Notes: a model not told the origin generated them from the letters alone. A DNA stretch of 63,817 nt from Patescibacteria group bacterium (GCA_018830125.1 JAHJSY010000041.1:1-63817), one strand, 5' to 3'. Numbered from the stretch's first letter, positions 6,144-46,850 are shown. Program-made: numbers and translations.

Positions 6144-6148
6144 TAAAA

Positions 6149-9476: not shown

Positions 9477-10074
9477 AATAGAATTAATCAAATTGAAGAT
9501 AAGATTAAAGACCTCCCAAAGAGGACATAAACTCTTAAAAGAAAAGAGAGATGGCTTGATGAAAAAGTTTATGGAAATTATTAAGGAAGCTAAGGTCAAA
9601 AGAATTGAAATGGAAGAAAAGCTTTCTAATTCTGGAAAGGACTTTGCTATTATTTCGTCTCCCTTTTCTCCTAAAGAAGTGGAGCAGTTTTTTCTTTTAC
9701 CTTCAATGAAAGCTGAAGTTTCAATGGAAGAAAAAAACATTATGGGAGTAAAGATTCCTGTGTTTTCTTGCCAGACCTACAAGATAGAGCCTGATGAAAA
9801 AAGTTATTCTTATTTCTCTTTCCCAATTGGAATGGAAAAAAGTATTAAAGAGTTTGAAAATACTTTTTCTCTGATGTTAGAATTAGCCAATATTGAACAT
9901 TCGGCTCGTCTTTTATCTTTTGAAATAGAGAAGACCAGACGAAGAGTCAATGCTTTAGAATATATTATTATTCCTCAAATAATTCAAAACATTAAATTAA
10001 TTCGTTCAAAACTAGACGAAAATGAAAGGGCCGAAAAAATAATCCGTTTAATCATAAAATCCCAAATCGCTTAA
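9454..10074 (+). CDS. ntpD: V/A-type ATPase central-stalk subunit D
   Basis: N-terminus [31 protein letters not shown] is the D-subunit signature. Overlaps ntpB. Confidence 0.9.
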
Positions 10075-14686: not shown

Positions 14687-15175
14687 CTATCTTATCATAA
14701 TTTTACGAGTGTTGGTATCTATGAATTTGAAGTTTATCCAGATGGTGTTTGGAGGGAGAATTTTTTTGATGTTGTCAGCCCATTCTATAACTATGATATT
14801 TTGGGGATTGGAAATTATTTCTTCAAATCCTAATTCCAAAATCTCTTTAGAATCTTTGATTCTATAACAATCAAAATGATAAAGATTTTGCTTGCATAAG
14901 TGCTTGCATAAGTCCGACTTATGCGAAACTGCATAAGTCGGACTTATGGCAAACTTTTTGAAGATGACGAATGTGGGGCTTAAGACTTTTTCTTTGACGC
15001 CTAGGGTCTTAGCAAAGGCTTGAGTGAAAGTTGTTTTGCCTCCCCCAAGTTCTCCTTTTAGCCCAATAACAATTCCCTGCTTGCTTGAAGGCAGGTTTTT
15101 TGAAATTTCTTTAGCAAATTCTTCGGCTATTTTCTGGGTTTCTTTTATGCTACTTGTAATATATTCTTTTTTCAT
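14687..15175 (-). CDS. tsaE: tRNA t6A37 biosynthesis ATPase TsaE
   Basis: P-loop GELGGGKTTF, then SPTF and LYHFDCYR motifs. Carries a palindrome-derived insert between them. Confidence 0.8.
   Translation of the reverse strand: MKKEYITSSIKETQKIAEEFAKEISKNLPSSKQGIVIGLKGELGGGKTTFTQAFAKTLGVKEKVLSPTFVIFKKFAISPTYAVSHKSDLCKHLCKQNLYHFDCYRIKDSKEILELGFEEIISNPQNIIVIEWADNIKKILPPNTIWINFKFIDTNTRKIMIR
14905..14949. repeat. two copies of palindrome GCATAAGTC(C/G)GACTTATG(C/G) inside tsaE
   Basis: 14905..14923 and 14931..14949, plus tandem CTTGCATAAGTG just upstream. A third copy lies at 61183..61201. Confidence 0.85.
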
Positions 15176-15191
15176 GTTAATATATCATAAC

Positions 15192-24151: not shown

Positions 24152-24276
24152 CCCAAGATCCCTTTCAAAAAAATGTTAAAATGCTAATTATTCTTGTTCT
24201 TAATAATAGCATAATTATTTCATCTTGTCTATTTAAAATTTTCCACTAGTAATTAGATTAATAATTGTGATATAAT

Positions 24277-24681
24277 GTGTTAATGCTTGAATATTCAAAA
24301 GAAGAGCTTTGGAGCTTATATAAACAAATTCCCAAAGACCTACAGCGAGCCACTTTCTCTGAACAAGTAGGCACGGATATACGGAAAATATGCGATAAAA
24401 ATGGAATTACTGATGAAGATTTAATTCTCAAAATAACTAAAAATGTTGGCTATGTTTTTTTGGGATTATTATCTCCTGATAAATTTTCCGAAGAACTTCA
24501 GCGAGATTTAAAGATGAAGAAAGAGACAGCCGATCAAATAAGTGGCGGTTTAACAAATATTGTTTTTTTACCATTAAAGAAAAGCCTTGATATATTATAT
24601 GGAATAGAAATCAAAGCCATAAAAATTACAGAACCCGCCAAAAAAGAACCAGCCATAGATATTTATAAAGAAAAAATATAA
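24277..24681 (+). CDS. hypothetical protein, first gene of the PrgI/VirB4 cluster
   Basis: 134-aa ORF, 3 nt upstream of the PrgI-like gene. No motif recognised. Confidence 0.5.
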   Translation: MLMLEYSKEELWSLYKQIPKDLQRATFSEQVGTDIRKICDKNGITDEDLILKITKNVGYVFLGLLSPDKFSEELQRDLKMKKETADQISGGLTNIVFLPLKKSLDILYGIEIKAIKITEPAKKEPAIDIYKEKI

Positions 24682-24684
24682 CTT

Positions 24685-25104
24685 ATGGAATTTACCGTCC
24701 CACAATTTATAGAGAAAGAAGCAAAAATAGTTGGACCTTTTACTTTTAAGCAGTTTATTTTTATAGGAATCGCCAGTGGTCTTTCTATTTTTATGTATTT
24801 CGTTTTTCCTTTCTTCTTATTTATAATACTTGCTATCCCCCTAATCGGAGCAGCTTTTGCTCTAGCTTTTATGAAAGTAAGCCGAACATCTCTGCCAACA
24901 TTTGTAGCTAACTTTTTTACTTTTTTCTTTAAACCAAAAATATATTTATGGGACAAAAAAACTGGCTCGCCTAAATTTTTAAAGAAAGAAAAGATTATGG
25001 CTCAAGACCTAACAAAAGAGAAAAATAAAGAAGAGGGGATAAAATTAAAGGTATCGCGCGGAAGTCGTTTAGATGAATTATTCACAAAACTAGAAACCAA
25101 ATAA
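24685..25104 (+). CDS. PrgI-like (VirB3-type) small membrane protein
   Basis: The VPQFIEKEAKIVGPFTFKQFIF start followed by two TM helices is the PrgI-family pattern. Precedes VirB4. Confidence 0.5.
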   Translation: MEFTVPQFIEKEAKIVGPFTFKQFIFIGIASGLSIFMYFVFPFFLFIILAIPLIGAAFALAFMKVSRTSLPTFVANFFTFFFKPKIYLWDKKTGSPKFLKKEKIMAQDLTKEKNKEEGIKLKVSRGSRLDELFTKLETK

Positions 25105-25109
25105 AATAT

Positions 25110-25736
25110 ATGCCTAGCACACAAGACTTTTTAAAATTTGATCAAATAAAAGAAGGCGTTGTTATCTTAAAAAATAAAGGTCTTAGGTTGATACTAATGG
25201 TTTCCTCTTTAAATTTCGCCTTAAAATCAGTTGATGAACAAAACGCTATTCTTTATCAATTCCAGAACTTTTTAAATTCTTTAGATTTCCCAGCTCAAAT
25301 TATTGTTCAATCTAGACGCTTAAATATGACTGGCTACCTAGACAAATTAACAGCTATCGAGGAAAAAGAAACTAACGAATTAATGAAAATCCAGGTTGGA
25401 GAATACAGAAAATTCATTGAACAAATAGTTGGAGGTGGTTCCATTATGCAAAAAACATTTTATGTTATCGTTCCTTTTTCTGTATCTGAAATGATGTTCG
25501 CCGAAGAAGGTAAAAGAATACCTAAGATACCTCAGTTGACCGAAGATGCATTTCAAAGGGCCAAGAACCAGCTCCTTCAACGTGCAGAATTTGTGATGCT
25601 GGGTTTAGGATCTTCTGGTTTAGAGGCTGTTCCATTAACTAATTTAGAAATTGCTGAACTTTTCTGGAGCTTACACCATCCCATAGAAGCAGAAAGAGGA
25701 TATTATCCAGAAATACCTAGTGAATTAATAGAGTAA
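25110..25736 (+). CDS. VirB4/TraC N-terminal domain-like protein (separate ORF)
   Basis: 208 aa. FDQIKEGVVILKNKGLRLILMVSSLNFALKS..AILYQFQNFLNSL resembles the N-terminal domain of Gram-positive VirB4/PrgJ. Ends 4 nt before the ATPase ORF, in a different frame. Confidence 0.5.
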   Translation: MPSTQDFLKFDQIKEGVVILKNKGLRLILMVSSLNFALKSVDEQNAILYQFQNFLNSLDFPAQIIVQSRRLNMTGYLDKLTAIEEKETNELMKIQVGEYRKFIEQIVGGGSIMQKTFYVIVPFSVSEMMFAEEGKRIPKIPQLTEDAFQRAKNQLLQRAEFVMLGLGSSGLEAVPLTNLEIAELFWSLHHPIEAERGYYPEIPSELIE

Positions 25737-25740
25737 TATT

Positions 25741-27543
25741 ATGAAAATACCTTTTTTAGACAAACTACAGGGGGAAAAAGAAATAAAAGGCGAAATGTTT
25801 GATATTAAACCAATTGGCATTGCTGACATTATTGCCCCTTCCTCTATTGAAGTCAAAAATAACTTTATTAAGATAGGCGAAAGAATGGCTAAAAGTTATT
25901 TTATTTTTTCTTATCCAAGATATTTAAGCACTGGCTGGCTTTCACCAATTATCAACTTAAATGTTCCAATGGACATTTCCTTTTATCTACATCCCGTTCC
26001 AAGCGAAATTATATTAAAAAAACTAAGAAAAAAAGTTACCGAAGTCCAAGCTCAACTAGCTGAAAATGAAGAAAAGGGACTGATCAGAGACCCAACCCTA
26101 GAAACCGCCCACCAAGACCTAGAAGAATTAAGGGATAAACTTCAAACAGCTCAGGAAAAGATGTTTCGTTTTAGTTTATATCTTACAGTTTATGGCGATA
26201 ATGAAAAAGAATTAAGAACCGTTGAGACAAATTTAAGATCTGTTTTAGAATCCAGATTAATTTATATTAAGCCAGCTCTATATCAACAAAAAGAGGGTTT
26301 TATTTGCACTTCTCCTTACAATATGGACTTGTTGATGGTAACTACCCTGATGAACACTTCTCCACTTTCCAGTACTTTCCCGTTTATTTCTAACGACTTA
26401 AGCTCTAACGAAGGAATACTTTATGGTATTAATAGACACAATAATTCTTTAGTATTGTTTGATAGATTCTCCTTGGCTAATGCCAATGAGGTTATTTTCG
26501 CCACATCGGGAGCTGGAAAATCGTTTTCTGTTAAACTTGAAGCTTTGAGATACTTAATGCTTGGTGTAGATTGTATTATTATAGATCCTGATAATGAGTA
26601 TCGCTTTTTAGCTGAGTCTGTTGGCGGTTCTTTTTTCAATATTTCTTTATCATCGGATGATCATATTAATCCTTTTGATCTAGCCAAACCAAGAGAAGAT
26701 GAAAGATCGGAAGATGTTTTGCGTTCTAATATTATTAATTTAGTTGGCTTGATGCGCGTAATGCTCGGCGGACTAACTCCTGAAGAGGATGGTATTATGG
26801 ACAGAGCTATAACCGAGGTTTATGCAGCTAAAGACATTACTATTGATAGTGACCCTAAAAAATGGGGCGTAGAACTCTCCTTTCCAACCATGAGTGATCT
26901 AGAAGATATTCTTATAACAATGGAGGGAGCTGATAGTTTAATTAAAAGAATCCAAAGATTTACCAAGGGAGTTTACGCCAACTTCTTCAACCAACAATCA
27001 AACATAAACATAAAGAATCGGCTAGTTGTTTTTGGCATAAGAGATATGGAAGATGAACTTCGTCCAATGGCTCTCTTTGTTGTTCTTAGATATATTTGGA
27101 AAACTATTACCGCCTCCCTTAAAAAGAGAATGCTTGTTATTGATGAAGCATGGCTACTCATGAAAAACGAAGAGGGTGCTTCTTTCTTATTTGGAACAGT
27201 TAAAAGAGCTAGAAAGTATTGGCTTGGGGTAACAACCATAACTCAAGATGTCAATGACTTTATGAAATCGGATTACGGTAAGCCGATTATAACTAACTCT
27301 TCGCTGGCTCTCTTAATGAAGCAGAGTCCGGCAACTATTGATACTGTTCAAAAAACATTTCATCTTACCGATGAAGAAAAGATGCTTTTATTAGAATCTC
27401 CTGTTGGAGAAGGTATCTTTTTCGCTGGAGCCAAACATGTCTTAATAAAGGTCTTAGCATCATACACAGAAGAGCAAATCATTACCACCGCTCCCGAACA
27501 ATTGAACAAAATAAAAGAAGCTAAAAGAATAGCTTCTGAATAA
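25741..27543 (+). CDS. VirB4-family type IV secretion ATPase (C-terminal ATPase part)
   Basis: Walker A ATSGAGKSFSVK, Walker B RMLVIDEAWLL. Conserved ITQDVNDF region. Confidence 0.8.
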   Translation: MKIPFLDKLQGEKEIKGEMFDIKPIGIADIIAPSSIEVKNNFIKIGERMAKSYFIFSYPRYLSTGWLSPIINLNVPMDISFYLHPVPSEIILKKLRKKVTEVQAQLAENEEKGLIRDPTLETAHQDLEELRDKLQTAQEKMFRFSLYLTVYGDNEKELRTVETNLRSVLESRLIYIKPALYQQKEGFICTSPYNMDLLMVTTLMNTSPLSSTFPFISNDLSSNEGILYGINRHNNSLVLFDRFSLANANEVIFATSGAGKSFSVKLEALRYLMLGVDCIIIDPDNEYRFLAESVGGSFFNISLSSDDHINPFDLAKPREDERSEDVLRSNIINLVGLMRVMLGGLTPEEDGIMDRAITEVYAAKDITIDSDPKKWGVELSFPTMSDLEDILITMEGADSLIKRIQRFTKGVYANFFNQQSNINIKNRLVVFGIRDMEDELRPMALFVVLRYIWKTITASLKKRMLVIDEAWLLMKNEEGASFLFGTVKRARKYWLGVTTITQDVNDFMKSDYGKPIITNSSLALLMKQSPATIDTVQKTFHLTDEEKMLLLESPVGEGIFFAGAKHVLIKVLASYTEEQIITTAPEQLNKIKEAKRIASE

Positions 27544-27545
27544 AT

Positions 27546-27863
27546 ATGGCAGACGACACAGCAGCAATTGCTATTCCTAAAAAGAAAAAGGGCTGGTTTC
27601 AAAAGATACCAGCTCATGTTTTGCTTTCCCCCACAGGAATAGTTTTAGTTATGTTCGCTCTAGTAATAGAGATCATTGATTTAATCCCATTACCAGTTGT
27701 TGACCAATTGTGGGAATTACCCCTAGAAATAGCTTTTATTGTATTTTTCTTGTTGTTAGTAAAAGATGCTTCTTTTAAATCATTGGTTATCCCTTTTATC
27801 TTAGAACGCATACCAATATTAAGCGACATTCTACCAACTTGGTTTTTAAAGATTATTATGTAG
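27546..27863 (+). CDS. small membrane protein (105 aa)
   Basis: Starts 3 nt after VirB4. Two to three hydrophobic helices. Confidence 0.5.
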   Translation: MADDTAAIAIPKKKKGWFQKIPAHVLLSPTGIVLVMFALVIEIIDLIPLPVVDQLWELPLEIAFIVFFLLLVKDASFKSLVIPFILERIPILSDILPTWFLKIIM

Positions 27864-31226: not shown

Positions 31227-31337
31227 TGTGGATAAAATTGGCTTAAAGTTTATCCACTAAAATAGACCCACCTTTTCCTACGAATTTTAGACGCTTTATC
31301 CCCAATATAAGTAAGAGTAAAATAAAGATTTTCCACA
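31227..31337. promoter_or_regulatory. DnaA-box cluster (probable oriC) between dnaA and dnaN
   Basis: TGTGGATAA (31227..31235, perfect, reverse). TTATCCACT (31250..31258), TTATCCCCA (31296..31304) and TTTTCCACA (31329..31337) each differ from consensus at one position. The surrounding tract is AT-rich. Confidence 0.7.
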
Positions 31338-35118: not shown

Positions 35119-37362
35119 TTATTTTTTTGTTCCTGTTCCCGTCGTAGGTGTTTCCCTTTTTTTGCTACCTCCTGCTCCCGTTGTAGGTATTTTTGTTGCC
35201 CCTTTTTCCCGACTCCCCGTTGTAGGTGTCGGTTTTACAGTTACTTTAGGTGGTTGTGTGCCTATGCCGAGTGGTCCCATTCCAAGCCCAATTGCTGGCG
35301 AGCTTGGCGTAGTTGTTGTAGGTTTTTCTTCTACATATCTTGCCCTTCTGTATCCTCTATCTTGAACTCTCTTAGAATTTAGTGCTTTAAAGCCAGCATT
35401 GCCCCCGTATTTTTGTTCAGTTTCTTTTTCGTAATCTTTCCAGATTTCTTTAAAGGTTTCTGACTCTACAGCGTTTCCATCTTTATCTGTGCGGTCAGAC
35501 AATAGTTCTGTGATTTCTGACTCACTAAATCCAGAGTTTTTGATCGTAGAATGATTTCTAGCAAATCCTGAGAAATCACCATCCATGCTTTCGTGGAATG
35601 TTTTCTGGCCATTTTTAACTTGACGATTAAGTTGTAACATTCTATCCTCTTCAAAGTTTGCCAAAACAGAACGTAACTGATCTTTATCCTTAAGCTCTTC
35701 TGGCTCCCAGTCTTTGATATGTTCTCTGGCTTCATTGGTAGCTTTTGAAACAGCCATTTCGGGAGACATTCCTTTGTAGCTACCAATGCCATACTTGGCA
35801 GCTATTTTAGCTAAACGAGGGTCTCTTCTTAAAGTAGATCCTAGCATGCCGGTATCTCCAGCATTTTTTAACAAAGGTGCCATAACTTTTCCAAATTGTT
35901 TATCGTTTACTATTTCTTCATCAGACAGACCTTTCCACCTACTAAAGCTTCTGGCTCTATTAAACAGATCTTGGGCATCATTTCCCTTAAGAAGCTTAGA
36001 ATAATATCCCATGGCTTGAGCTCCTTTAACTTTTTGAGTTAATATCTTGTCGGCTGTTTCTAGTCCCGATTCGCCCTCTGCTTCTTTAGCCGCTGCATCT
36101 ATAGCAGGCCTTAAGTTTCCAAAGTCAGAGACTGCTTTCGGAGTAGCCCACTTGAAGGCAGCAAGGGGTTTTATTCCTGTGCCTGTCGGATCCCAATTTC
36201 CAATTCTTCTTGTAAATCGACCTGTTTTTGCCGCAGCACTTCTTAACTTTCTTTCAAGCACTGGTCTTGCTCCACGTCCAACTTTTCTAGCACCTTCTTT
36301 TGCTCCCCATCCTATAGCCCCGGTTGCTCTTTTTCTGCTCCACTGGGCGGCTCTTATAGCCGATGAAGAGCCGAAAGCAGTGGCCTTAAGGCCGATAAAG
36401 AAGCCGAGATAAATAAAAGCAGCTATTACGAAATAGGGGAAAGATTGGTCAACAAGACCAACAATTGATGCTTCTGCTCCGGGGATTTTAACTTGTGATT
36501 CAAACCGCCCCTTTATTACTGGTATGGCAGTTGCTGCTAAATAAAGGAAAAAGGCCATTGGAATACCAATAATTGACCATTGAATAAGTTGTTTCCACCA
36601 CATATCCCAAACTTTTTTAGTGGCAGGAAGAATCCAAGCAACAAAGGCCAAGGGAGACAAAATAACTAAAAGCCAAATCATAATATATCTAAGGACAAAA
36701 ACAAAAACCATAAGTAAAAAAGCAAGACCAATAGAGAAATACAAACCCATCATAATAGCTCCCTTCACAAGCAACGAAAAAGGTTTTAGCGTACCCGGTC
36801 TTGTAAGTGCTCCTGCTAGTGACTCATTACTAACATCTGTTAGAGCTCCAGATATGTCATTTCTAATTCCTTGTAGGAAAAAGTTCATTGTAATGTTTGA
36901 GGCGTCAACAATTACCCCGCAAATAACCGGAGCAAAATTTACCAACAGAGCAACGACGAATAGTCTTAAAAAAGTCTTTTGAGATGCATACTCTTTTAGT
37001 TGTAAGCTAATAGAAATAGCAATAAAAATTAAAACAACAACTAATCCTAAATTAACAAAGTTTTTAGTAATGTCTAGCCCAGCAGCAACGATTGGATTAG
37101 CATTATCTCCCGATGGATTAGTATAGCTAAAACTTATAAATTCAGGACTGACTACCCAATCTAAAAGAGATCCTGCTATTTGGGCGAAACCAGCACTAAG
37201 ATAAACAAATGCTCCCATAACATGACTTACTATTGTAACCCCAAGATTATCTACAGCATCTTTAAGTGCTTGCCATTGAGCATTAGCCGAAAAAGGAATA
37301 ACAAGCACAGCGATAATTATTAAACAAGCGATAGTTATAGTTAATTGTTTTTTTATTCTCAT
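35119..37362 (-). CDS. polytopic membrane protein, VirB6/TrbL-like (putative), with hydrophilic C-terminal domain and Pro/Thr/Gly tail
   Basis: 747 aa. Signal/TM start, at least 6 hydrophobic helices in the first ~330 aa, then a soluble region ending in TTTPSS..TPTTG repeats. Last gene of the four-gene operon. Confidence 0.45.
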   Translation of the reverse strand: MRIKKQLTITIACLIIIAVLVIPFSANAQWQALKDAVDNLGVTIVSHVMGAFVYLSAGFAQIAGSLLDWVVSPEFISFSYTNPSGDNANPIVAAGLDITKNFVNLGLVVVLIFIAISISLQLKEYASQKTFLRLFVVALLVNFAPVICGVIVDASNITMNFFLQGIRNDISGALTDVSNESLAGALTRPGTLKPFSLLVKGAIMMGLYFSIGLAFLLMVFVFVLRYIMIWLLVILSPLAFVAWILPATKKVWDMWWKQLIQWSIIGIPMAFFLYLAATAIPVIKGRFESQVKIPGAEASIVGLVDQSFPYFVIAAFIYLGFFIGLKATAFGSSSAIRAAQWSRKRATGAIGWGAKEGARKVGRGARPVLERKLRSAAAKTGRFTRRIGNWDPTGTGIKPLAAFKWATPKAVSDFGNLRPAIDAAAKEAEGESGLETADKILTQKVKGAQAMGYYSKLLKGNDAQDLFNRARSFSRWKGLSDEEIVNDKQFGKVMAPLLKNAGDTGMLGSTLRRDPRLAKIAAKYGIGSYKGMSPEMAVSKATNEAREHIKDWEPEELKDKDQLRSVLANFEEDRMLQLNRQVKNGQKTFHESMDGDFSGFARNHSTIKNSGFSESEITELLSDRTDKDGNAVESETFKEIWKDYEKETEQKYGGNAGFKALNSKRVQDRGYRRARYVEEKPTTTTPSSPAIGLGMGPLGIGTQPPKVTVKPTPTTGSREKGATKIPTTGAGGSKKRETPTTGTGTKK

Positions 37363-37378: not shown

Positions 37379-38800
37379 TTAATATATAACATTACCCTTA
37401 ACTACGGTCATTGATTTCAGGCAGGGGATACAATCTCGTAAAAATTCTTTACTGTCAGAGAGTGCTTTTTTGCAATCTTTTCCGCATTGTCCAATCGGCT
37501 GATCAAGTAAATTGTTATCATTTTTACTAATAACTTCACATGTTTTACTATTTTCTTGATAGTTTTCTCCCGAGAACATTATTGCGAAATAGGCGTCTTC
37601 AGGATCTATTTTAACAGATCTCGTTCCTTTGAGTCTTTCTTCTTCTGAAAGATCTGGAAAAATAGTTACACTTCCACCACCCCCCATACCTCCGGATCCT
37701 GATACTGTTCTACCCTCAGCTCCTGTAGGTCCTGCTAAATTTCCCAAATCTCCTCTTGACACTTCTCTTTTATAAGAATTGGCGTTTTGTATGGAGAAGC
37801 TTAGCTCTCCACCAACTCCAGTTAAGCCAGAAGGGCAATTTTTAGTTGTACTGTGATCAAGACATTGAAATAGAATAATTCCTCTATTACTTGAACTAAT
37901 TACTCTTTCTGGTTTTTCAAAAAGAGTTACAGATTTAGCTTTGTCAAGACCTGAAAAGGGAGTGGATGTGACCGAATCGCCTCGAGATTCATAATTTGTG
38001 TCTAAAAAATTTGGAAAACATTTACCCTTCCAGTCATCTTCTTCGTGAAAAATTATTCCATAATTATATTCCCAATCATCCTTACTGTTGGGATCTTCGG
38101 GATTTTTATATATCCTTTTTGGTATTGAAAACATAAGTTTTTCATTATTATCTTTAGTGAAATTTAAATCATCTTTGTTTATATTCGCAGAAAATTTCAC
38201 CCTATAACAGGAACCATCATCATTACTCATTATATCTCTTAATTTTCTTGCCGCATTAACTCTGCCAGCTAAACTATCTGAATCAGTATCTAGATCTAAA
38301 TACGAACGGATTAAGCCTTGAACATTACCCGGATTATAATTACAAAGATATATTCCAGGAGTAATAACGGGTTCTACGGCTTTCAGGTCTTTTATAGGAC
38401 TTAATTTAGTTAAATCAGGATTTATTGAATTGAAAAGGATAAAGGCACTAACAAGAATAAGAGTTCCAAAAAGAGATGCAAAAATTCCATTTCTTGCGTT
38501 AAGAAGCTTTTCGGCACTGCCTGCGGAAAGAACATATGATATACCATTCCAAACCATAACAGAAAGAATTAAAAAACCACTAACGGCTATAGCGAACCTA
38601 AAAACATATCTAACATAATCAGGAAGACCAGTGTCAGGTTCTAGCGTTAACTCCTCACCGTCTTCTCCACGGAGAACGGGATAGACAATTTCAAGAGCTC
38701 TGCCTTCATCTGTTGAGGTTTCTGTTCCTTGGGCAAGAATAGGTGAAGCAGGGGCAAGAAGTATAAAGATAATGAATATAAGGAATAAGTTTTTTTTCAT
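37379..38800 (-). CDS. T4SS pilin-like (VirB2/TrbC-type hairpin) protein with ~330-aa Cys-containing ectodomain
   Basis: Signal peptide ..SPILAQ. LPDYVRYVFRFAIAVSGFLILSVMVWNGISYVLSAGSAEKLLNARNGIFASLFGTLILVSAFILFNSINPDL is paralogous to the 777-aa and 164-aa proteins. About 10 Cys. Start set to MKKNLF (38800). Confidence 0.6.
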   Translation of the reverse strand: MKKNLFLIFIIFILLAPASPILAQGTETSTDEGRALEIVYPVLRGEDGEELTLEPDTGLPDYVRYVFRFAIAVSGFLILSVMVWNGISYVLSAGSAEKLLNARNGIFASLFGTLILVSAFILFNSINPDLTKLSPIKDLKAVEPVITPGIYLCNYNPGNVQGLIRSYLDLDTDSDSLAGRVNAARKLRDIMSNDDGSCYRVKFSANINKDDLNFTKDNNEKLMFSIPKRIYKNPEDPNSKDDWEYNYGIIFHEEDDWKGKCFPNFLDTNYESRGDSVTSTPFSGLDKAKSVTLFEKPERVISSSNRGIILFQCLDHSTTKNCPSGLTGVGGELSFSIQNANSYKREVSRGDLGNLAGPTGAEGRTVSGSGGMGGGGSVTIFPDLSEEERLKGTRSVKIDPEDAYFAIMFSGENYQENSKTCEVISKNDNNLLDQPIGQCGKDCKKALSDSKEFLRDCIPCLKSMTVVKGNVIY

Positions 38801-38804
38801 TGTT

Positions 38805-41534
38805 TTAATACAAAACATCAAGTATTTCATTTGAGCTATTAATAATGCTTTGATTGGTGTTTCCTATTTCTCCTATATTAACACGAATATCGTCCATTGG
38901 GTAAGGGTTTCCTCCTGAAGGCGGGACACTTTCATATCCGGGATAAAGACCTGACAGATCAAGATCAGCATCAAGAGATGGCATTTGGAATCCAGGGAGA
39001 TCAAATCTTTTTTGTTTAGTGTAACTCATGTCGCCTAATGGAATAGAAGGAAGCTGATAATCTATGGGATTAGTCAGTGGAATTTTCTTTAAGTCTTCTG
39101 TCCAAGGAATATCTATTCTTCTAGCTATTTTAGATAGTTCAGCATTTACGGTATCCATGGGGATATTGATTTTGTCTAAAATAGCATAGGCATCCGGAAT
39201 TTTGAACATTCCATTCTCTACAACTGTACGGGATACACTTTCAGCTACTGCTTCTTCTACTTTTCTTCGGATATCATTCAACCGTTCATGGATAGATTCT
39301 GTAATTAGATCTTTAAGCACGCTAGCGGCACTATCAAGCTGATTTTGAATTTGTGATTGAATAGTGTTGTCAAGCACGTTCTGAATGCGACTCATTTTAC
39401 TAGCTACATTTTGATTTAAAGAATCATCAATGTTTTTACAAAACTTATCAACATCCATAAATCTATTATCACATAAATCAGGTATTTCTGGAAATCTTGG
39501 CCAAGAAAAATAATAATCAGGGAAACCAATATCTAGTGGAATACCAGAAATTCCCGCACTAACACATCCGTTAGGAATAGAAATAATACTAGAGACTAAC
39601 CCTAAAAGCATATTCCCCATATCAATATCTATACCCATAAAATTTAAAATAACTTCAGGCTGTGGAAGGGAAATTTCTGGTAAATCCATATCTAAACTAA
39701 GCAGATCGGTTAAATCAATTTCAGGCATTGGAATAGGAATGGACGGGAACTTAATATCATTCATTTTTATTGATAGTGGATCAAGCTGGGGGCCATTAGG
39801 AATAGCAGGCATATCAGCACGGATAGGTGGAATATCAATATCAGGGATTCTTAAAGAAGGATATTGAAAGTCTACCTTCAAAGAAGAAAGATCTCTTTTG
39901 CACATATTTAAATTACAGGGCTTTAAGTCAGGAAGAATTAAATCTTCAAAAATAAGGCTCGGAAGGCGCACCCTTAAAAAAGGCATAAAGTTGAAAGAAG
40001 GCAGTCTGACATCAGGAATTATTGTGTCAGGAAGTTCTATTCTTGGGAATAGCGTTGAATTAATAGAGGGCAAGGAAGGACAATCTAGCCTAATGCTATT
40101 TTGGGAATGATTAGAAATGGTTTGTGGAGCACAGGATGTTGATGGCGTCTGATATGTTTGAGCTCCAGGATTTTCAAGCGTTCTATTAAACAAAGGAATA
40201 AATTTACACGGTTCAGGAATGTTCATTTCTCCGGCTTGTTTTAATTCAGAGCATTTGTTTCTAAGAGTGTTGAGGTTGCAAATTGGTGGTGCTGTTTCTC
40301 CTTCTGATCTAAATAAGTCCTGACATTTTGCGTTAACATTAGTTATTTCATAGCATATTTCAGGAGGACGAGCACAACCAGTTCCCATACAGGTAGAATG
40401 TCTTTGTCGTAAAATTTGGCATTGATCAATAATCGTAAGATGAACAGAATCTTCGTTAAAGCATTGTTCGTATCTTTCTTGGACAGGATTATTATTGGCG
40501 TCTGTTAAGCCAGGCAGTTCTTGGCATCTATCAGATAACCAAGATAATGTTTGTAAAAACCATTCTAAATCAACATATTGATTGTTCTCAGGAGTATCTT
40601 CCTTTGTACATTGATATGGGCTAGCATCTAATTGGGTACATGAAAAGCTAGCTGGAGGAATTCCGGGAATATCTGGATAGGGAGGATGAAAAACGATTGG
40701 ATCCAGAGAAAGATCTGACACTTGATCAATTGGAATATCAGGAAAGGCAATATTAATATCTTGCAAATCAATATTAAAATCACCTATATTAGCAGCATCT
40801 GACATTTGGATGCTATCTGGCAAATTAAGCCCAACTTCGTCAATTGCTATTCTTCCTAAGTTTAAATCGCCTAAACGAACCCCTATTTCAAAGTTCATGT
40901 TTATTGGATTTTGTTCTCCACCACTTCCAAAAACACAAGCGTTGACTACTGGAATAGTATTTGTATTACACTGAGCTTGACACTGGTTTTTAGCTGAATA
41001 AGCATCATTATCTAATATCTCAACATTTTCTAAAGCTGAATCGGTAACGCCTTCGCTTGAAGAAATTATATTATTTAAATTAGACTCTAATACTATTGCT
41101 TGATCTTCATCCATTCTCTCCAGCTCTTCGGCTAAGCCAGTATCCATTTCTGTTTGAAGTAGTTCTTTTAAGAAATTCATTTGTTGCGCTTTATCTTTAA
41201 CTGCTAGTTTGGTTTTCTCTAACTCCTCTCCATTATTACAAGTTTCACCAAAAACGCCGACACTCCCTTCTCTTATACACTGCGATGAAGCGTTAGTACA
41301 ACTACATTGAGAAGCTTGGTTGCTTAATTTTTCATTGAAAAATTCCAAATCCTGAGTAGTTTGACTCAACTCACTAATAATATATTTTAATCTATTAGGA
41401 TAATGAGGATAATATTCTAGCCATTGGGCAAAAATATCAGAGCTGGTACCTGATTTTTCTAACAATGGAATAAAAACATTAATCAAAACCGCCAAAACTA
41501 AAATGCCTGGTATGATAAACTTTTTCATTTTCAT
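38805..41534 (-). CDS. N-terminally anchored, cysteine-rich giant surface protein (909 aa)
   Basis: One TM helix (FIIPGILVLAVLINVFIPLL). About 27 Cys by my count. Degenerate P-(D/S)-I / IP repeats in the middle (IPDIDIPPIRADMPAIP, PSIPIPMPEIDL). Start ATG 41534 lies 1 nt after the upstream stop. Confidence 0.55.
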   Translation of the reverse strand: MKMKKFIIPGILVLAVLINVFIPLLEKSGTSSDIFAQWLEYYPHYPNRLKYIISELSQTTQDLEFFNEKLSNQASQCSCTNASSQCIREGSVGVFGETCNNGEELEKTKLAVKDKAQQMNFLKELLQTEMDTGLAEELERMDEDQAIVLESNLNNIISSSEGVTDSALENVEILDNDAYSAKNQCQAQCNTNTIPVVNACVFGSGGEQNPINMNFEIGVRLGDLNLGRIAIDEVGLNLPDSIQMSDAANIGDFNIDLQDINIAFPDIPIDQVSDLSLDPIVFHPPYPDIPGIPPASFSCTQLDASPYQCTKEDTPENNQYVDLEWFLQTLSWLSDRCQELPGLTDANNNPVQERYEQCFNEDSVHLTIIDQCQILRQRHSTCMGTGCARPPEICYEITNVNAKCQDLFRSEGETAPPICNLNTLRNKCSELKQAGEMNIPEPCKFIPLFNRTLENPGAQTYQTPSTSCAPQTISNHSQNSIRLDCPSLPSINSTLFPRIELPDTIIPDVRLPSFNFMPFLRVRLPSLIFEDLILPDLKPCNLNMCKRDLSSLKVDFQYPSLRIPDIDIPPIRADMPAIPNGPQLDPLSIKMNDIKFPSIPIPMPEIDLTDLLSLDMDLPEISLPQPEVILNFMGIDIDMGNMLLGLVSSIISIPNGCVSAGISGIPLDIGFPDYYFSWPRFPEIPDLCDNRFMDVDKFCKNIDDSLNQNVASKMSRIQNVLDNTIQSQIQNQLDSAASVLKDLITESIHERLNDIRRKVEEAVAESVSRTVVENGMFKIPDAYAILDKINIPMDTVNAELSKIARRIDIPWTEDLKKIPLTNPIDYQLPSIPLGDMSYTKQKRFDLPGFQMPSLDADLDLSGLYPGYESVPPSGGNPYPMDDIRVNIGEIGNTNQSIINSSNEILDVLY

Positions 41535-41535
41535 T

Positions 41536-43869
41536 TTAAAAATCACTTGTTTCACAATCATATAATTCTCCAATATCTATATGGATATGAGTTATTTTAT
41601 CTAAAACATATGCTTCGGAAGAACATTTTTTAGCTGTATCTATTATTTCGTCTATGTATTTTCTTTGAAGTTCGGAAGACATATCAAAATCCACAGCATA
41701 GGATTCTTCTGTATCCCGACAAAAAGTGCCTCCGTAATGAGCCGAAACTTTCATTTTGTTTTGTTCTATTCCATAAATATGAGAACAATCTCTTGGGTCT
41801 TTGGGACTGAAACCCCATTCACATTTTCCAGTATATAGCTTTTCATCAGAAATAGAAGAGATTAATCCTATTATTTCTTCCGTTTCTTCTTCTGCTTCTT
41901 GATACTTATCTAATCCCTGACGCATACAAGAAAGAAGCTGTTTAAGTGGTTTAGAAGCATCGTTTTCGTATTGATCATGATTTCTTACACTGCTTGTGCA
42001 GTCAAATCCCTTAGGACAGCCGTCTTCTGATGATAGTACAGAATGTTCTTTGAGGGGAACAATATATAGAGGGTCTGAATCAGACGAAATTGGTAAGGGA
42101 GGAGTAGCTGATGGTGAACAACAATAAACATCTCTTGGATTACAGCTAGTCATAATTGTACCGCTGGGTCCATAATTGCCCTTGGCACCTTCACAGCTTA
42201 ATAAAATAAATTCTGGATTGTTAATATTAGGATCAAAACAGACGCGAGTAGCAGCATCAAGATTATGAAGATTATAGGGGTTTTTAGGTCCTTCTGCGTG
42301 GTATAATACGGCCGGGAATATTTTCTTTATTTCTGCAATAACTCCAGTATCAATTTCAAGAATTTTGTCTTCGGTTTCTTTTATTTCTTCCGATTTTTTG
42401 GTGATTTCTTCTACTGGACAGGCATCACCACTGCATCCCTGAATAGACTGAAGACATTTGGATCGGCAAAAGACAGCCATTGGCCCACATGGTATCGGGC
42501 TACAGCATCTGTACCACGGGTTAGGTATGCAACTACAAGATGGCTCACAATAAGTTCTATTGCATTGTGATACAAGTTCGGTCATCTCTTGCACTTGTTG
42601 AGCCATTTTTTCAGTTAAGCGAGATAATTCTTCTAATTTGAAGATAGCAATAATTGCTAACTCTCTGAGTTGATCAATCGTTTCTCCTGTTGGTATTCTG
42701 GTATGGCAACTAATTAATTGAATCTCATACGGAGAAGCTACTTTTTCAGAAGATGGAGTTTCTTCGGAAAGCTCTTTTATTTTCTGGGGAGTATATGGAG
42801 CATCATAAATGGTTCCTCCCACAGAACAATAAAAGGTTAAAGCCTCATCTCCGGCTTCTTTGTAACCAGATATTTCAATAACTTGATTTCCTAATTCTTC
42901 AAATTGTTGCTTAGCTAACAAGAGATCGTTGCGTGTCATAAACTCCTGGTTTTGGGTTCGGCAAGAAATAATTTCTCCTTCTATTTCTTGGAATTTTCTT
43001 AACTCTTCTCTTAATAATTCTTTATGCTCGGAAACCTTTTTTTCATATTTGGAAAGAGTCTTTATTTTCTCCCGGTCTATATTCAGAACCTTTTTTATTC
43101 TTTCTCTGGCTGTCGGATTATCGTCATCATTTTCACAAGGATCTCCTGAACAACCAATGGGCATAGAACCCGATTGGGGTTTTGTGCAAAGAGCTTTGGT
43201 GTTTTCACATCGACACTCATCGGTTACCGTTTTTAGATATTTATTTAAGTCCGAAATTCTATTAAGTTTATCATTCTCCAGGTTGGGATCGTCCACATCT
43301 ATTTCCTCTTTAAGAAAACCTTCAAAGTCTGTAATAAGAGTTTCTAATTCTTCGGTTCTTTCTTCTTCCCAAACAGTGGCTGTTGTCATAGCACTTTTTA
43401 ATGGTAGTTCAGCTACAATCCAAGTAAGTACTTCTCTCTCTGGTGCGGTATAAGTATTGATACTGCCTGGATCAACTGGAGTTAATGGACCAAATTCAAG
43501 AATCAATAATTGAGGATTAATACTGACCAAAATTAAATAAGAAGAAAATAGAATAACTATTCCCAAGAGAGCACCAGTTAACTGATCCTTAGCAGCCTTT
43601 AACTTGGATGGATCGGTACCCGAAGTTATATATAATATGCCTCCATAAATTAAAGAGGCTAGAGCTAGGAAAGCTGAGATGGCAATAGCAAAGTTGAATA
43701 TATATTTTACATAAGCAGGTAATCCGTCTTGAACTGTCTCAGGAGCTTTACCTATAATATCTGGATAATCAATTTCCAGGTCTTGGGCTAAGACGAGAGA
43801 ATATATAGAAATAGCAAACAAAAAAGCAATAAAAGAAAATAAGAAAAGTTTTTTAGTTTTCCCCAACAT
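41536..43869 (-). CDS. T4SS pilin-like (VirB2/TrbC-type hairpin) protein with ~640-aa cysteine-rich ectodomain
   Basis: Signal peptide ..SLVLAQ. LPAYVKYIFNFAIAISAFLALASLIYGGILYITSGTDPSKLKAAKDQLTGALLGIVILFSSYLILVSINPQL. About 32 Cys by my count. C-terminal SAH..AVDFD..HIHID motif string. Confidence 0.6.
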   Translation of the reverse strand: MLGKTKKLFLFSFIAFLFAISIYSLVLAQDLEIDYPDIIGKAPETVQDGLPAYVKYIFNFAIAISAFLALASLIYGGILYITSGTDPSKLKAAKDQLTGALLGIVILFSSYLILVSINPQLLILEFGPLTPVDPGSINTYTAPEREVLTWIVAELPLKSAMTTATVWEEERTEELETLITDFEGFLKEEIDVDDPNLENDKLNRISDLNKYLKTVTDECRCENTKALCTKPQSGSMPIGCSGDPCENDDDNPTARERIKKVLNIDREKIKTLSKYEKKVSEHKELLREELRKFQEIEGEIISCRTQNQEFMTRNDLLLAKQQFEELGNQVIEISGYKEAGDEALTFYCSVGGTIYDAPYTPQKIKELSEETPSSEKVASPYEIQLISCHTRIPTGETIDQLRELAIIAIFKLEELSRLTEKMAQQVQEMTELVSQCNRTYCEPSCSCIPNPWYRCCSPIPCGPMAVFCRSKCLQSIQGCSGDACPVEEITKKSEEIKETEDKILEIDTGVIAEIKKIFPAVLYHAEGPKNPYNLHNLDAATRVCFDPNINNPEFILLSCEGAKGNYGPSGTIMTSCNPRDVYCCSPSATPPLPISSDSDPLYIVPLKEHSVLSSEDGCPKGFDCTSSVRNHDQYENDASKPLKQLLSCMRQGLDKYQEAEEETEEIIGLISSISDEKLYTGKCEWGFSPKDPRDCSHIYGIEQNKMKVSAHYGGTFCRDTEESYAVDFDMSSELQRKYIDEIIDTAKKCSSEAYVLDKITHIHIDIGELYDCETSDF

Positions 43870-44034: not shown

Positions 44035-44058
44035 CACTCACCTTTGACTTTTGCACTA

Positions 44059-45026: not shown

Positions 45027-45072
45027 TAAAAGTGACCGAGTCACTTTTCGCTAAAAGTGACTCGGTCACTTT
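45027..45072. repeat. two tandem palindromes AAAAGTGAC(C/T)(G/C)(A/G)GTCACTTT
   Basis: 45027..45047 and 45054..45072, between divergent rsmA and the M23 peptidase gene. Same element as 33664. Confidence 0.85.
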
Positions 45073-45131
45073 ATTCTGAGGTGTGGAAAAGGGGGTTGAC
45101 TGGATATTTCCGAAAAGGTAGTATAAATAAA

Positions 45132-46154
45132 ATGAGTAATAAGATAAGTTCTTATTTAGGTAAATTATTGATCGTTTTAGCCGTTTTAATCTTCGGCTTC
45201 TTTATTTTCAGCTCAAATTCGGTGTTAAGATCTCTTGAAGATTTTTCTCTTTTAGCTTCAGCTGTGGACTCGGGTCAGGAATTATTTGTCGCAGGATCTA
45301 GTAATATTGCTAGAGAGTCCCCTAATATGAATTTTGTTCAAAATAATAGCTTAGTTGCCGTCGCTCCTCCAATGACGATTGATGTTAATACTTTGGGAAG
45401 CATGATCGGTGGTATTGAAGAAGACGATGGTACTCGGAAAGAAATTCTTGAATATATTGTTGAGCCAGATGACACTCTTTCAACAATTGCCGACAAGTTT
45501 GATATTTCTTTAAGTACAATTTTAATAGCTAATGATCTCGGGTCTAAGTCAACCATTAAGCCTGGTCAAAAACTTATTATTCTTCCAGTATCGGGTGTTA
45601 TTTATCATGTTAAAAATGGAGATACATTGGGTGATATTGCTAAAACTTATAAAGGAAAAACAACGGAAATAATTGCTGTTAATAATCTTTCTGGCGAGGG
45701 TAACATATTCATCGGAGATATTTTAGTTATTCCTAATGGAAAAATACCGGTCTCTGGGTCAAGTACCTACGCTGCTAATATCCCAGTTGGCTCAAGTTAT
45801 TTTATTGCTCCTTTAGCCAGATATACAATTACCCAAGGACTTCATTGGTATAATGCTATTGATTTTGCTGCTCCTTGTGGAACTTCAATATATGCCACTG
45901 CCGCTGGAGTAATTCAGAGAGTAGAATATGGATGGAACGGAGGAGCGGGAAATTATCTTAGAATTTTACATCCTAACGGAGTTGTTACAATGTATGGACA
46001 TATCCAAAAGAGCTTAGTCGTTCAAGGTCAAAATGTTTCCCAAGGAGAAAGAATTGCTTTAGTCGGCGGAAAACCAGGAACAACTGGTGCTGGAAAATCA
46101 ACTGGATGTCATGTCCATTTTGACGTCCGTGGAGCTCGCAACCCCTTTCAATAA
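45132..46154 (+). CDS. LysM-LysM-M23 peptidoglycan endopeptidase
   Basis: TM anchor and two LysM repeats (YIVEPDDTLSTIADKF.., YHVKNGDTLGDIAKTY..). M23 motifs HWYNAIDF and GCHVHFDV. Start moved to ATG 45132 because the track start lies inside the palindromes. Confidence 0.85.
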   Translation: MSNKISSYLGKLLIVLAVLIFGFFIFSSNSVLRSLEDFSLLASAVDSGQELFVAGSSNIARESPNMNFVQNNSLVAVAPPMTIDVNTLGSMIGGIEEDDGTRKEILEYIVEPDDTLSTIADKFDISLSTILIANDLGSKSTIKPGQKLIILPVSGVIYHVKNGDTLGDIAKTYKGKTTEIIAVNNLSGEGNIFIGDILVIPNGKIPVSGSSTYAANIPVGSSYFIAPLARYTITQGLHWYNAIDFAAPCGTSIYATAAGVIQRVEYGWNGGAGNYLRILHPNGVVTMYGHIQKSLVVQGQNVSQGERIALVGGKPGTTGAGKSTGCHVHFDVRGARNPFQ

Positions 46155-46844: not shown

Positions 46845-46850
46845 GGAAAT

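What the first reader, a model, noticed from the sequence alone, without database searches (positions are those of the whole stretch)
24277..27863. T4SS-like ATPase module with VirB4 encoded as two ORFs
Five tightly packed genes (gaps of 2-5 nt) sit in this order:
- a hypothetical protein
- a PrgI-like two-TM protein
- a 208-aa protein resembling the VirB4/PrgJ N-terminal domain
- a 600-aa VirB4 ATPase (SGAGKS, VIDEAW)
- a 105-aa membrane protein

208 + 600 aa matches the length of a single-chain VirB4 (about 800 aa). The junction (stop at 25734..25736, ATG at 25741, different frame) could be a genuine split or a frameshift. There is no VirD4, relaxase, or VirB8/9/10/11 nearby. The partner structural genes appear to lie 7 kb away, across the replication origin.
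Basis: partly seen in the sequence, partly recalled or inferred. Interest (0 to 1): 0.65.

Follow-up and report, generated by a model that had tools for sequence, protein, structure and literature searches.

The report
Two-gene VirB4 in patescibacterial secretion system

Summary
Five co-oriented genes lie 2-5 nt apart: a 132/134-aa helical protein, a PrgI/VirB3-like protein, a 208-aa protein, a 600-aa VirB4 ATPase (SGAGKS, VIDEAW) and a 105-aa membrane protein.

The 208 + 600 aa split is genuine, not a frameshift.
- The junction is identical in six independent assemblies.
- In 75 species-level relatives the two genes are always separate. Gaps run from about -83 to +194 nt (nominal; the large negatives come from upstream alternative starts) and all three frame relations occur.
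- The 208-aa protein maps to the first ~160 residues of single-chain clostridial VirB4. The 600-aa protein maps to residues 205-754.
- Its predicted fold matches R388 TrwK/VirB4 best.

This pair is the TrsD + VirB4 arrangement of pGO1-type Gram-positive systems. Quinonero-Coronel et al. 2025 describe it as near-universal in Patescibacteria, next to dnaA and without a relaxase.

No relaxase, coupling protein or VirB11 lies in the window. The partner genes are at 35-47 kb: a VirB6-like candidate, pilin-like proteins and a LysM-M23 hydrolase. They sit apart from the ATPase module, in an order that one inversion spanning the origin would explain.

Interest is low.

The parts
24277..24681 (+). First gene of the operon: a small cytoplasmic all-helical protein (132 aa from ATG 24283, or 134 aa from GTG 24277). 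Function unknown; restricted to this lineage.
   Evidence: ORF. Gene calls of 132 aa in six assemblies. Found directly upstream of PrgI in 48 of 80 relatives. Only 46 homologues and no Pfam family. AF2 pLDDT 86.5 with six helices. No PDB fold match, all E > 2.
24685..25104 (+). PrgI/VirB3-like membrane protein (139 aa), inferred to anchor the ATPase to the membrane.
   Evidence: Pfam PF12666 PrgI, 32.9 bits against a gathering score of 27. Aligns to positions 15-125 of the Mycoplasma VirB3-VirB4 fusion model. Hydrophobic stretch at about 24-66. Present upstream of TrsD in 78 of 80 relatives.
25110..25736 (+). TrsD-like protein (208 aa; Pfam PF26593 'TraC-like'): the detached N-terminal subdomain of VirB4.
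   Evidence: More than 7,885 homologues; the best 120 are all 204-214 aa. NCBIfam alignments to the VirB4 N-terminus. HMM hits residues 24-162 of a 797-aa VirB4. hhalign gives 99.5% and 98% probability to the genes upstream of virB4 on two Firmicutes plasmids. Foldseek top hits are TrwK/VirB4.
25741..27543 (+). VirB4 ATPase lacking its first ~200 residues (600 aa). Walker A SGAGKS at 256-261; Walker B VIDEAW at 466.
   Evidence: NF045971, 360 bits above the 325 cut-off, model positions 187-732. PDB 4ag5 VirB4 C-terminal domain, E 1.4e-40. BLASTP: residues 20-563 align to residues 205-754 of a 783-aa C. perfringens VirB4.
27546..27863 (+). Small membrane protein (105 aa, 2-3 helices) that ends the operon. 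Function unknown.
   Evidence: Conserved directly after virB4 in 21 of 80 relatives. No family match.
31227..31337 (.). Context: a cluster of four DnaA boxes between dnaA and dnaN, the probable oriC. It lies between the two T4SS modules.
   Evidence: dnaA and dnaN identified. Local minimum of cumulative GC skew at about 30-32 kb.
35119..37362 (-). Polytopic membrane protein (747 aa, at least 6 helices in the first 340 residues): a VirB6/TrbL-like candidate.
   Evidence: Hydropathy. Of 18 orthologues, 3 hit Pfam TrbL/VirB6 (best E 1.8e-4) and 1 hits TrbL_4. Weak, non-significant hits to TrwI/VirB6. Lies immediately upstream of the PrgI-TrsD-VirB4 genes in 20+ relatives.
37379..38830 (-). Secreted or membrane protein (483 aa) with a pilin-like N-terminal segment and a large ectodomain.
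   Evidence: Weak hit to the NCBIfam Mbov_0395 pilin-like family (E 0.04). Its HMM hits Pontibacillus pilin-like genes at E 1.9e-13. Lies downstream of virB4 in close relatives.
38805..41573 (-). Large protein (922 aa) with an N-terminal hydrophobic helix, a likely signal anchor. It lies between the two pilin-like genes. Function unknown.
   Evidence: No family match.
41536..43869 (-). Protein (777 aa) with an N-terminal VirB2-type pilin domain and a cysteine-rich ectodomain.
   Evidence: Pfam T4SS_pilin PF18895, 28.4 bits against a gathering score of 26.6. Mbov_0395 pilin-like family, E 6e-5. Lies directly after the 105-aa gene in close relatives such as L001-L009.
45057..46154 (+). LysM-M23 peptidoglycan endopeptidase, a candidate functional analogue of VirB1.
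   Evidence: Pfam LysM and Peptidase_M23. Clustered with KsgA, the 747-aa gene and virB4 in 20 relatives. The same association is reported in PMC12102498.
46158..46652 (+). VirB2/TrbC-like pilin (164 aa).
   Evidence: Pfam T4SS_pilin, E 5.8e-11; TrbC, E 1.4e-4.

Best explanation
Region 24277-27863 is the energising operon of the chromosomal, origin-proximal type IV secretion system typical of Patescibacteria. The organism appears to be a Nealsonbacteria/Paceibacteria-type bacterium.

The VirB4 motor is made from two polypeptides. The 208-aa TrsD-like protein corresponds to the first ~160-200 residues of a single-chain VirB4. The 600-aa protein carries the rest of the N-terminal domain plus the RecA-like ATPase domain.

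Inferred mechanism: the PrgI/VirB3 hairpin sits in the membrane and holds TrsD. TrsD docks onto the 600-aa ATPase, rebuilding a complete VirB4 N-terminal domain. The resulting hexameric ATPase powers assembly of VirB2-like pilins and export through a VirB6-like channel encoded at 35-47 kb. A LysM-M23 hydrolase opens the cell wall.

No relaxase or coupling protein is present in the window. The machine is therefore more likely to serve the epibiotic lifestyle, through protein export or host contact, than conjugation.

Shown here: gene identities, the conserved split, colinearity with single-chain VirB4, and synteny. Inferred: physical TrsD-VirB4-PrgI docking, the substrate and the biological role.
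For: Genuine split:
- More than 7,885 homologues of the 208-aa protein exist, and the best 120 are all 204-214 aa.
- In 75 of 75 species loci that carry both genes, TrsD (203-265 aa) ends in a stop codon and virB4 starts separately. Gaps run from about -83 to +194 nt (nominal; the large negatives come from upstream alternative starts) and all three frame relations occur.
- The junction is identical in six independent ENA, Logan and JGI assemblies whose module DNA is 97-100% identical to the window.

TrsD corresponds to the VirB4 N-terminus:
- NCBIfam CD1110 positions 2-146 and VirB4_plasma positions 104-233 match TrsD. The 600-aa protein covers 187-732 and 284-893 of the same models.
- An 81-sequence HMM hits residues 24-162 of a 797-aa C. 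botulinum VirB4 (30.8 bits) and residues 44-132 of a 783-aa C. perfringens VirB4.
- BLASTP places the 600-aa protein on residues 205-754 of the C. perfringens protein.
- Ten of the 11 best Foldseek matches are chains of R388 entries whose best match is 747-808 aa long, the size of TrwK/VirB4; probability is up to 1.00.

The same three-gene layout, PrgI then TrsD-like then a ~620-aa VirB4, occurs on Firmicutes plasmids.

Literature:
- TrsD is the most abundant T4SS component in Patescibacteria, usually lies next to virB4, and sits near dnaA, dnaN, rnpA and ksgA. Relaxases are rare (PMC12102498).
- VirB3 wraps around the VirB4 N-terminal domain in R388 (PMC9259494).
- The T4SS, with its pilins, is essential for epibiotic growth of Southlakia epibionticum (PMC10633639).

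Partner genes.
Against: - No direct evidence here that TrsD binds the 600-aa protein or PrgI. A multimer prediction could not be run with the tools offered.
- The AF2 model of TrsD is only moderately reliable: the best model has pLDDT 76.6 but the other four score 41-46. Foldseek TM-score is 0.41.
- The NCBIfam TrsD model itself matches only at E 0.1.
- hhalign against C. perfringens VirB4 gave only 25% probability.
- The VirB6 assignment of the 747-aa protein rests on weak hits.
- A coupling protein or relaxase could lie elsewhere in the genome, outside the window.
Confidence: 0.85

Rival explanations
1. The two ORFs come from a sequencing or assembly frameshift, or from a recent pseudogenising mutation, in a single ~800-aa virB4 gene.
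For: The stop and the next ATG are only 4 nt apart and in different frames. The summed length matches single-chain VirB4.
Against: The junction is identical in six independent assemblies. The split is present in 75 of 75 related species, with variable gaps (about -83 to +194 nt, nominal) and every frame relation. Thousands of stand-alone ~208-aa homologues exist at 69-100% identity. The same split occurs on Firmicutes plasmids.
Confidence: 0.01
2. The module belongs to an integrated conjugative element or plasmid remnant and moves DNA by conjugation.
For: The closest non-patescibacterial VirB4 proteins are conjugation ATPases of Gram-positive plasmids and ICEs. An IS200-like transposase and a small tRNA-Lys islet lie elsewhere in the window.
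Against: No relaxase, coupling protein or integrase was found among the ORFs scanned in the 64-kb window. The flanks are core genes: PBP1A, jag, yidC, rnpA and dnaA. Synteny with these genes is kept in more than 50 species. Base composition shows no island. The published survey finds relaxases in only 103 of 3,035 genomes.
Confidence: 0.04
3. TrsD is an independent accessory paralogue, for example a regulator, chaperone or adaptor. It does not structurally complete VirB4, and the 600-aa ATPase works alone as a naturally short VirB4.
For: [quoted passage not shown] In the class Gracilibacteria TrsD homologues are not encoded next to virB4. No interaction evidence was obtained here.
Against: TrsD and the 600-aa protein cover adjacent, non-overlapping and colinear parts of single-chain VirB4 models. 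Gene order PrgI-TrsD-VirB4 mirrors the domain order of VirB3-VirB4 fusions. Start and stop overlap (ATGA) in 9 of the listed species, which suggests translational coupling. TrsD is very highly conserved: 81 invariant columns across 26 sequences.
Confidence: 0.1
4. The system imports DNA, in the manner of the archaeal Ced system or a competence machine, rather than exporting substrates.
For: Weak NCBIfam hit to CedB (E 1e-12). ComEA-like and PilB-type genes lie 6-9 kb upstream. In the class ABY1 the T4SS sits next to comF, recG and radA.
Against: The CD1110 conjugation-type model scores far higher (E 2e-107 against 1e-12). A review of the S. epibionticum work states that essentiality of the T4SS cannot be due to interaction with ComEC (PMC12857230).
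Confidence: 0.05

Closest known systems
Patescibacteria-clade chromosomal T4SS (Quinonero-Coronel et al. 2025, PMC12102498; functional data for Southlakia epibionticum in Wang et al. 2023, PMC10633639)
   Same: The PrgI/VirB3, TrsD and VirB4 genes lie side by side. VirB2-like pilins, a LysM/M23 hydrolase and ksgA are nearby. The system sits next to dnaA, dnaN and rnpA. No relaxase is present. Homologues at 59-100% identity all come from Patescibacteria MAGs.
   Different: Nothing essential differs. In this genome the cluster is in two modules, 24.3-27.9 kb and 35.1-46.7 kb, on either side of oriC. Many relatives have one contiguous cluster. The paper does not state explicitly that the patescibacterial VirB4 lacks the segment that TrsD supplies.
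pGO1-type TrsC-TrsD-TrsE module of Gram-positive conjugative plasmids (MPF-FATA subclass). From my own knowledge, pIP501 TraC-TraD-TraE is the equivalent; this was not checked here.
   Same: A small VirB3-like protein, a ~200-270-aa TrsD-like protein and a ~620-aa VirB4, in that order. Shown for Pontibacillus and B. cereus plasmids. hhalign of the TrsD profile gives 99.5% (E 5e-23) and 98% (E 2e-13) probability.
   Different: By the literature, those systems are plasmid-borne conjugation machines with a relaxase and coupling protein. Identity to them is only about 28-35%. The NCBIfam TrsD model matches the window protein only at E 0.1.
Single-chain VirB4 ATPases: CD1110 family of clostridial elements, and TrwK of R388. 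PrgJ of pCF10 belongs here from my own knowledge; it was not tested.
   Same: Walker A and B motifs, and a full-length match of the C-terminal 550 residues (E 1e-78). The TrsD fold and profile match the N-terminal part.
   Different: In those proteins the N-terminal ~200 residues are part of the same chain. Here they are a separate gene product.
Mycoplasma ICE VirB3-VirB4 fusion ATPase (NCBIfam NF045975, Mbov_0397 family)
   Same: The three window proteins map in order onto one model: PrgI to 15-125, TrsD to 104-233 and VirB4 to 284-893. A pilin-like partner family (Mbov_0395) is also shared.
   Different: It is the opposite extreme of gene organisation: one 894-aa chain there and three chains here. 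All scores are far below that family's cut-off of 590 bits.

Membership tests
VirB4-type T4SS ATPase (NCBIfam NF045971, CD1110 family; MPF-FATA) | Whole-protein score above the curated family cut-off | tested here: met
   360.3 bits against a cut-off of 325, model positions 187-732 of 752.
VirB4-type T4SS ATPase (NCBIfam NF045971, CD1110 family; MPF-FATA) | Walker A and Walker B nucleotide-binding motifs | tested here: met
   SGAGKS at 256-261 and VIDEAW at 466. PDB 4ag5 VirB4 C-terminal domain, E 1.4e-40.
VirB4-type T4SS ATPase (NCBIfam NF045971, CD1110 family; MPF-FATA) | Complete N-terminal domain in the same polypeptide | tested here: not met
   The 600-aa chain starts at model position 187, which is residue 205 of a 783-aa homologue. 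The missing part is the separate 208-aa gene.
VirB4-type T4SS ATPase (NCBIfam NF045971, CD1110 family; MPF-FATA) | ATP hydrolysis and hexamer formation | not testable with these tools
   Needs biochemistry.
TrsD / Pfam PF26593 'TraC-like' | Match to the family model | tested here: inconclusive
   The precomputed Pfam assignment PF26593 is given for this protein and all 120 listed homologues. The Pfam copy searched here did not return it. NCBIfam TrsD NF041427 gave E 0.1, 12.4 bits against a cut-off of 200.
TrsD / Pfam PF26593 'TraC-like' | Stand-alone ~200-aa gene immediately upstream of virB4 | tested here: met
   75 of 75 loci. Firmicutes plasmids L081 and L082 have the same layout.
TrsD / Pfam PF26593 'TraC-like' | Remote homology to the N-terminal part of VirB4 | tested here: met
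   (30.8 bits to residues 24-162 of a 797-aa VirB4). Foldseek top hits are TrwK/VirB4.
PrgI / VirB3 | Pfam PF12666 above the gathering score, and a small protein with a membrane hairpin encoded next to virB4 | tested here: met
   32.9 bits against 27. Hydropathy. Adjacent in 78 of 80 loci.
Patescibacteria-clade chromosomal T4SS | VirB4 falls inside the monophyletic Patescibacteria clade | not tested
   No tree was built. Indirect support: VirB4 orthologues at 64-86% identity are all in Patescibacteria MAGs, whereas the best plasmid VirB4 is at most 35% identical.
Patescibacteria-clade chromosomal T4SS | TrsD, PrgI and VirB2-like pilins near virB4; close to dnaA; no relaxase | tested here: met
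   No relaxase or coupling-protein domains were found among the scanned ORFs.
Conjugative element (ICE or plasmid) | Relaxase, type IV coupling protein, and integrase or attachment sites linked to the T4SS genes | tested here: not met
   None found in the 64-kb window among the ORFs scanned; a few ORFs of 90 aa or more were not scanned. Flanks are conserved core genes. The rest of the genome was not visible.
VirB6 / TrbL (for the 747-aa protein at 35119-37362) | Polytopic membrane protein matching PF04610 | tested here: inconclusive
   At least 6 helices. The window protein itself has no hit. Of 18 orthologues, 3 hit TrbL (best E 1.8e-4) and 1 hits TrbL_4. Comparisons with CD1112 VirB6 and TrwI were not significant.

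The most novel reading that the evidence does not exclude
TrsD, which has 'no function assigned' in the literature, is literally the detached first subdomain of the VirB4 N-terminal domain. It would bridge PrgI/VirB3 and the 600-aa ATPase. Every patescibacterial T4SS motor, and every pGO1-type Gram-positive motor, would then be an obligate TrsD:VirB4 heteromer. The split could allow an assembly checkpoint or unequal stoichiometry, for example TrsD present only on the VirB3-bound central ring of a double VirB4 ring.
Probability: 0.55. Interest if true: 0.35.

Novelty: already known. Interest (0 to 1): 0.15.

Why it matters
The patescibacterial T4SS is of real interest because it is essential for the epibiotic growth of these ultrasmall bacteria and its substrate is unknown. 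This locus adds only one more instance of a published, near-universal arrangement.

The one modest point of value is a clearer statement of what TrsD is. It corresponds colinearly to the N-terminal ~160-200 residues that the short VirB4 lacks. That gives a testable structural role to a component described as having no assigned function. It also warns annotators not to 'repair' this junction as a frameshift.

Tried and rejected
- Sequence searches of TrsD against PDB chains found nothing useful, either as a single sequence or as a profile. Only the fold comparison worked.
- hhalign of the 26-sequence TrsD profile against C. perfringens VirB4 was weak (25% probability). A broader 81-sequence HMM was needed.
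- The first gene (132 aa): homologue search, AF2 (pLDDT 86.5) and Foldseek gave no family and no fold match. Its function remains open.
- HMMs of the 132/134-aa and 105-aa proteins found no counterpart in four Firmicutes T4SS loci.
- The 747-aa protein against VirB6: hhalign E 0.45 and PDB TrwI E 0.71, both non-significant. Only some orthologues reach Pfam TrbL.
- The promoter scan of 23.8-28.5 kb gave no more sites than shuffled sequence.
- A co-fold of TrsD with VirB4 was not attempted.
- Programmed frameshifting or read-through as a conserved way of fusing the two ORFs was rejected, because gap length and frame relation vary freely among species.
- The T2SSE-family ATPase at 15024-16469 was considered as a VirB11. 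It was rejected: it is PilB/GspE-type (E 1e-135 against 6e-15 for VirB11).

Full report
**Observation**

The five ORFs exist exactly as described. They are 24277-24681 (134 aa from a GTG), 24685-25104 (139 aa), 25110-25736 (208 aa), 25741-27543 (600 aa) and 27546-27863 (105 aa). Public gene calls start the first gene at the ATG at 24283, giving 132 aa. All five are on the + strand and are separated by 3, 5, 4 and 2 nt. The junction reads TAA (25734-25736), then 'tatt', then ATG (25741) in the +1 frame.

**Identities**

- The 139-aa protein passes the Pfam PrgI gathering score, 32.9 against 27 bits.
- The 600-aa protein passes the NCBIfam cut-off for 'VirB4-like conjugal transfer ATPase, CD1110 family', 360 against 325 bits. 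It covers only model positions 187-732 of 752.
- It carries SGAGKS at 256-261 and VIDEAW at 466. It matches the solved VirB4 C-terminal domain 4ag5 at E 1.4e-40.
- The 208-aa protein aligns to positions 2-146 of the same CD1110 model (E 2.4e-4).
- It also aligns to positions 104-233 of the Mycoplasma VirB3-VirB4 fusion model (E 5.7e-7). On that fusion model PrgI maps to 15-125 and the 600-aa protein to 284-893.
- The three ORFs are therefore colinear with one fused chain.

**Is the split real?**

Yes, on three lines of evidence.

- The 208-aa protein has more than 7,885 database homologues. The best 120 share 69-100% identity and are all 204-214 aa long. They come from Patescibacteria, with Nealsonbacteria named where a name exists.
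- A scan of one genome per GTDB species returned 80 loci. In all 75 that carry both genes, the TrsD-like ORF (203-265 aa) ends in a stop codon and virB4 (589-626 aa) starts on its own. Gaps run from about -83 to +194 nt; the large negative values come from upstream alternative start codons. All three frame relations occur, and 9 of the listed species have ATGA overlaps.
- Six independent assemblies from ENA, Logan and JGI carry the identical junction. Their module DNA is 97-100% identical to the window.

A frameshift artefact, a pseudogene or a conserved programmed frameshift is excluded.

**Is the 208-aa protein the missing VirB4 N-terminus?**

- Two clostridial plasmids encode single-chain VirB4 proteins of 797 and 783 aa directly after a PrgI gene.
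- The 600-aa window protein aligns to residues 205-754 of the 783-aa protein (E 1e-78).
- An HMM built from 81 TrsD orthologues hits residues 24-162 of the 797-aa protein (30.8 bits) and residues 44-132 of the 783-aa protein.
- An AF2 model of the 208-aa protein is of moderate quality. The best model has pLDDT 76.6 and the other four 41-46.
- Ten of the 11 best Foldseek matches of that model in the PDB are chains of the R388 T4SS entries. The best are 747-808 aa, the size of TrwK/VirB4, with probability up to 1.00 and TM-score 0.41.

This fits the gene order PrgI, then TrsD, then VirB4, and suggests that TrsD is the VirB3-binding piece. The docking itself is inferred, not shown.

**What it is**

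The literature already describes this system. Quinonero-Coronel et al. 2025 (PMC12102498) surveyed 3,035 Patescibacteria genomes.

- VirB4 is present in 2,417 of them and forms a clade nested in the monoderm MPF-FATA class.
[quoted passage not shown] There are 2,272 homologues, mostly next to virB4.
- PrgI/VirB3, VirB2-like pilins, LysM/M23 hydrolases, ksgA, rnpA, dnaA and dnaN lie in the neighbourhood. Relaxases are rare.

Wang et al. 2023 (PMC10633639) showed that the T4SS and its pilins are essential for epibiotic growth of Southlakia epibionticum. They also found that it lacks a recognisable relaxase and coupling protein. Pfam now has a family for the TrsD-like protein, PF26593 'TraC-like'.

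The split is older than the patescibacterial clade. The nearest plasmid VirB4s are on a Pontibacillus megaplasmid (32.5% identity) and a B. cereus plasmid. They are about 620 aa long and are preceded by a 274-aa or 216-aa protein. These proteins match the TrsD profile at 99.5% (E 5e-23) and 98% (E 2e-13) hhalign probability. Each is itself preceded by a PrgI-like protein.

**Surroundings**

The window is chromosomal backbone.

- Upstream of the module is PBP1A.
- Downstream on the opposite strand are jag, yidC, yidD and rnpA, followed by dnaA and dnaN.
- Four DnaA boxes lie in the dnaA-dnaN spacer at 31227-31337. Cumulative GC skew has a local minimum there.
- Pfam and NCBIfam scans of most ORFs of 90 aa or more found no relaxase, coupling protein, VirB8/9/10 or VirB11.
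- The only T2SSE-family ATPase, at 15024-16469, is PilB/GspE-type.

**Partner genes**

- 41536-43869 (777 aa) has a T4SS_pilin domain above the Pfam threshold.
- 46158-46652 is a VirB2/TrbC-like pilin.
- 45057-46154 is a LysM-M23 endopeptidase.
- 37379-38830 has a weaker pilin-like N-terminus.
- 35119-37362 is a polytopic membrane protein. Some of its orthologues reach Pfam TrbL/VirB6: 3 of 18, best E 1.8e-4. Direct comparisons with VirB6 are not significant.

In close relatives these genes lie right next to the ATPase module. Examples are L001-L009, with VirB4, the 105-aa gene, the 777-aa gene, then the 483-aa gene and jag. Another is L056, with LysM-M23, ksgA, the 483-aa, 777-aa and 747-aa genes, then the 132/134-aa gene, PrgI, TrsD and VirB4.

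Relatives with one contiguous cluster followed by dnaA, dnaN and PBP1A on the minus strand can be compared with the window. The window order is what one inversion of the origin-containing segment would produce. That inversion is an inference from gene order.

**Unknowns**

The first gene encodes a confidently predicted six-helix protein (pLDDT 86.5). It has only 46 detectable homologues, no family and no fold match. The 105-aa membrane protein also has no family. Both keep their positions in many relatives, 48 and 21 of 80 respectively. They probably belong to the system, but their roles are open.

**Verdict**

The open question, split or frameshift, is settled in favour of a conserved split. 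The arrangement is the published TrsD + VirB4 layout of the patescibacterial T4SS, so novelty is nil and interest is low.

The only small addition is the explicit colinear mapping. It shows that TrsD supplies the very segment that the short VirB4 lacks, which gives TrsD a testable structural role.

Noticed in passing
L003:10630-14430; also L005, L052, L054 and L073 (partial in L017 and L041): In 5-7 related species, virB4 is 1117-1268 aa because an insertion of ~520-665 aa sits inside the Walker A motif (GAGK|S...HN|S). It carries Pfam Intein_splicing and LAGLIDADG_3 domains, so it is an intein with a homing endonuclease in the P-loop of VirB4. The window's own virB4 has no intein.
   Followed up: partly
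window 46709-49479: Two tRNA-Lys(CTT) copies are identical over about 65 nt; Rfam matches the second only over model positions 8-63 of 71. They flank 2.6 kb that holds a 94-aa ORF, a Nudix hydrolase and an HTH-Fic protein ('mobile mystery protein B'). This looks like a small island inserted at tRNA-Lys, although no integrase was seen.
   Followed up: partly
window 21921-46652, compared with L025, L028, L040, L044 and L056: The order of PBP1A, the T4SS ATPase module, the origin genes and the T4SS structural module differs from many relatives. The difference is what a single inversion of the oriC-containing segment would produce. That inversion would split a once-contiguous T4SS cluster in two.
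   Followed up: partly
window 1919-10074: A complete A/V-type ATPase operon: subunits I, c/K, an unassigned 183-aa ORF, C/AC39, F, A, B and D. No F-type ATP synthase genes were seen in the window.
   Followed up: no
window 43964-44035: A tRNA-Ile with anticodon TAT (UAU). This is uncommon in bacteria, which usually decode AUA with a lysidine-modified CAU tRNA.
   Followed up: no
window 24262-24285: An extended -10 element (TGaTATAAT, 24268-24276) lies 6 nt before the ATG at 24283 of the first operon gene. The transcript may have little or no leader. The generic promoter scan did not report it.
   Followed up: no
L081 (Pontibacillus sp. ALD_SL1, 898-kb replicon NZ_CP062975.1, 350307-364088): The closest non-patescibacterial cluster has the same parts list: two pilin-like genes (HMM E 1e-14 to 2e-6), a 782-aa membrane protein weakly like the 747-aa protein (E 2.5e-4), PrgI-like, TrsD-like, a 621-aa VirB4 and a 1050-aa M23 endopeptidase. 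VirB2-like pilins with a monoderm T4SS are therefore not confined to Patescibacteria.
   Followed up: partly
window 1060-1773: An IS200/Y1-type transposase gene lies next to holA at the left end of the window.
   Followed up: no
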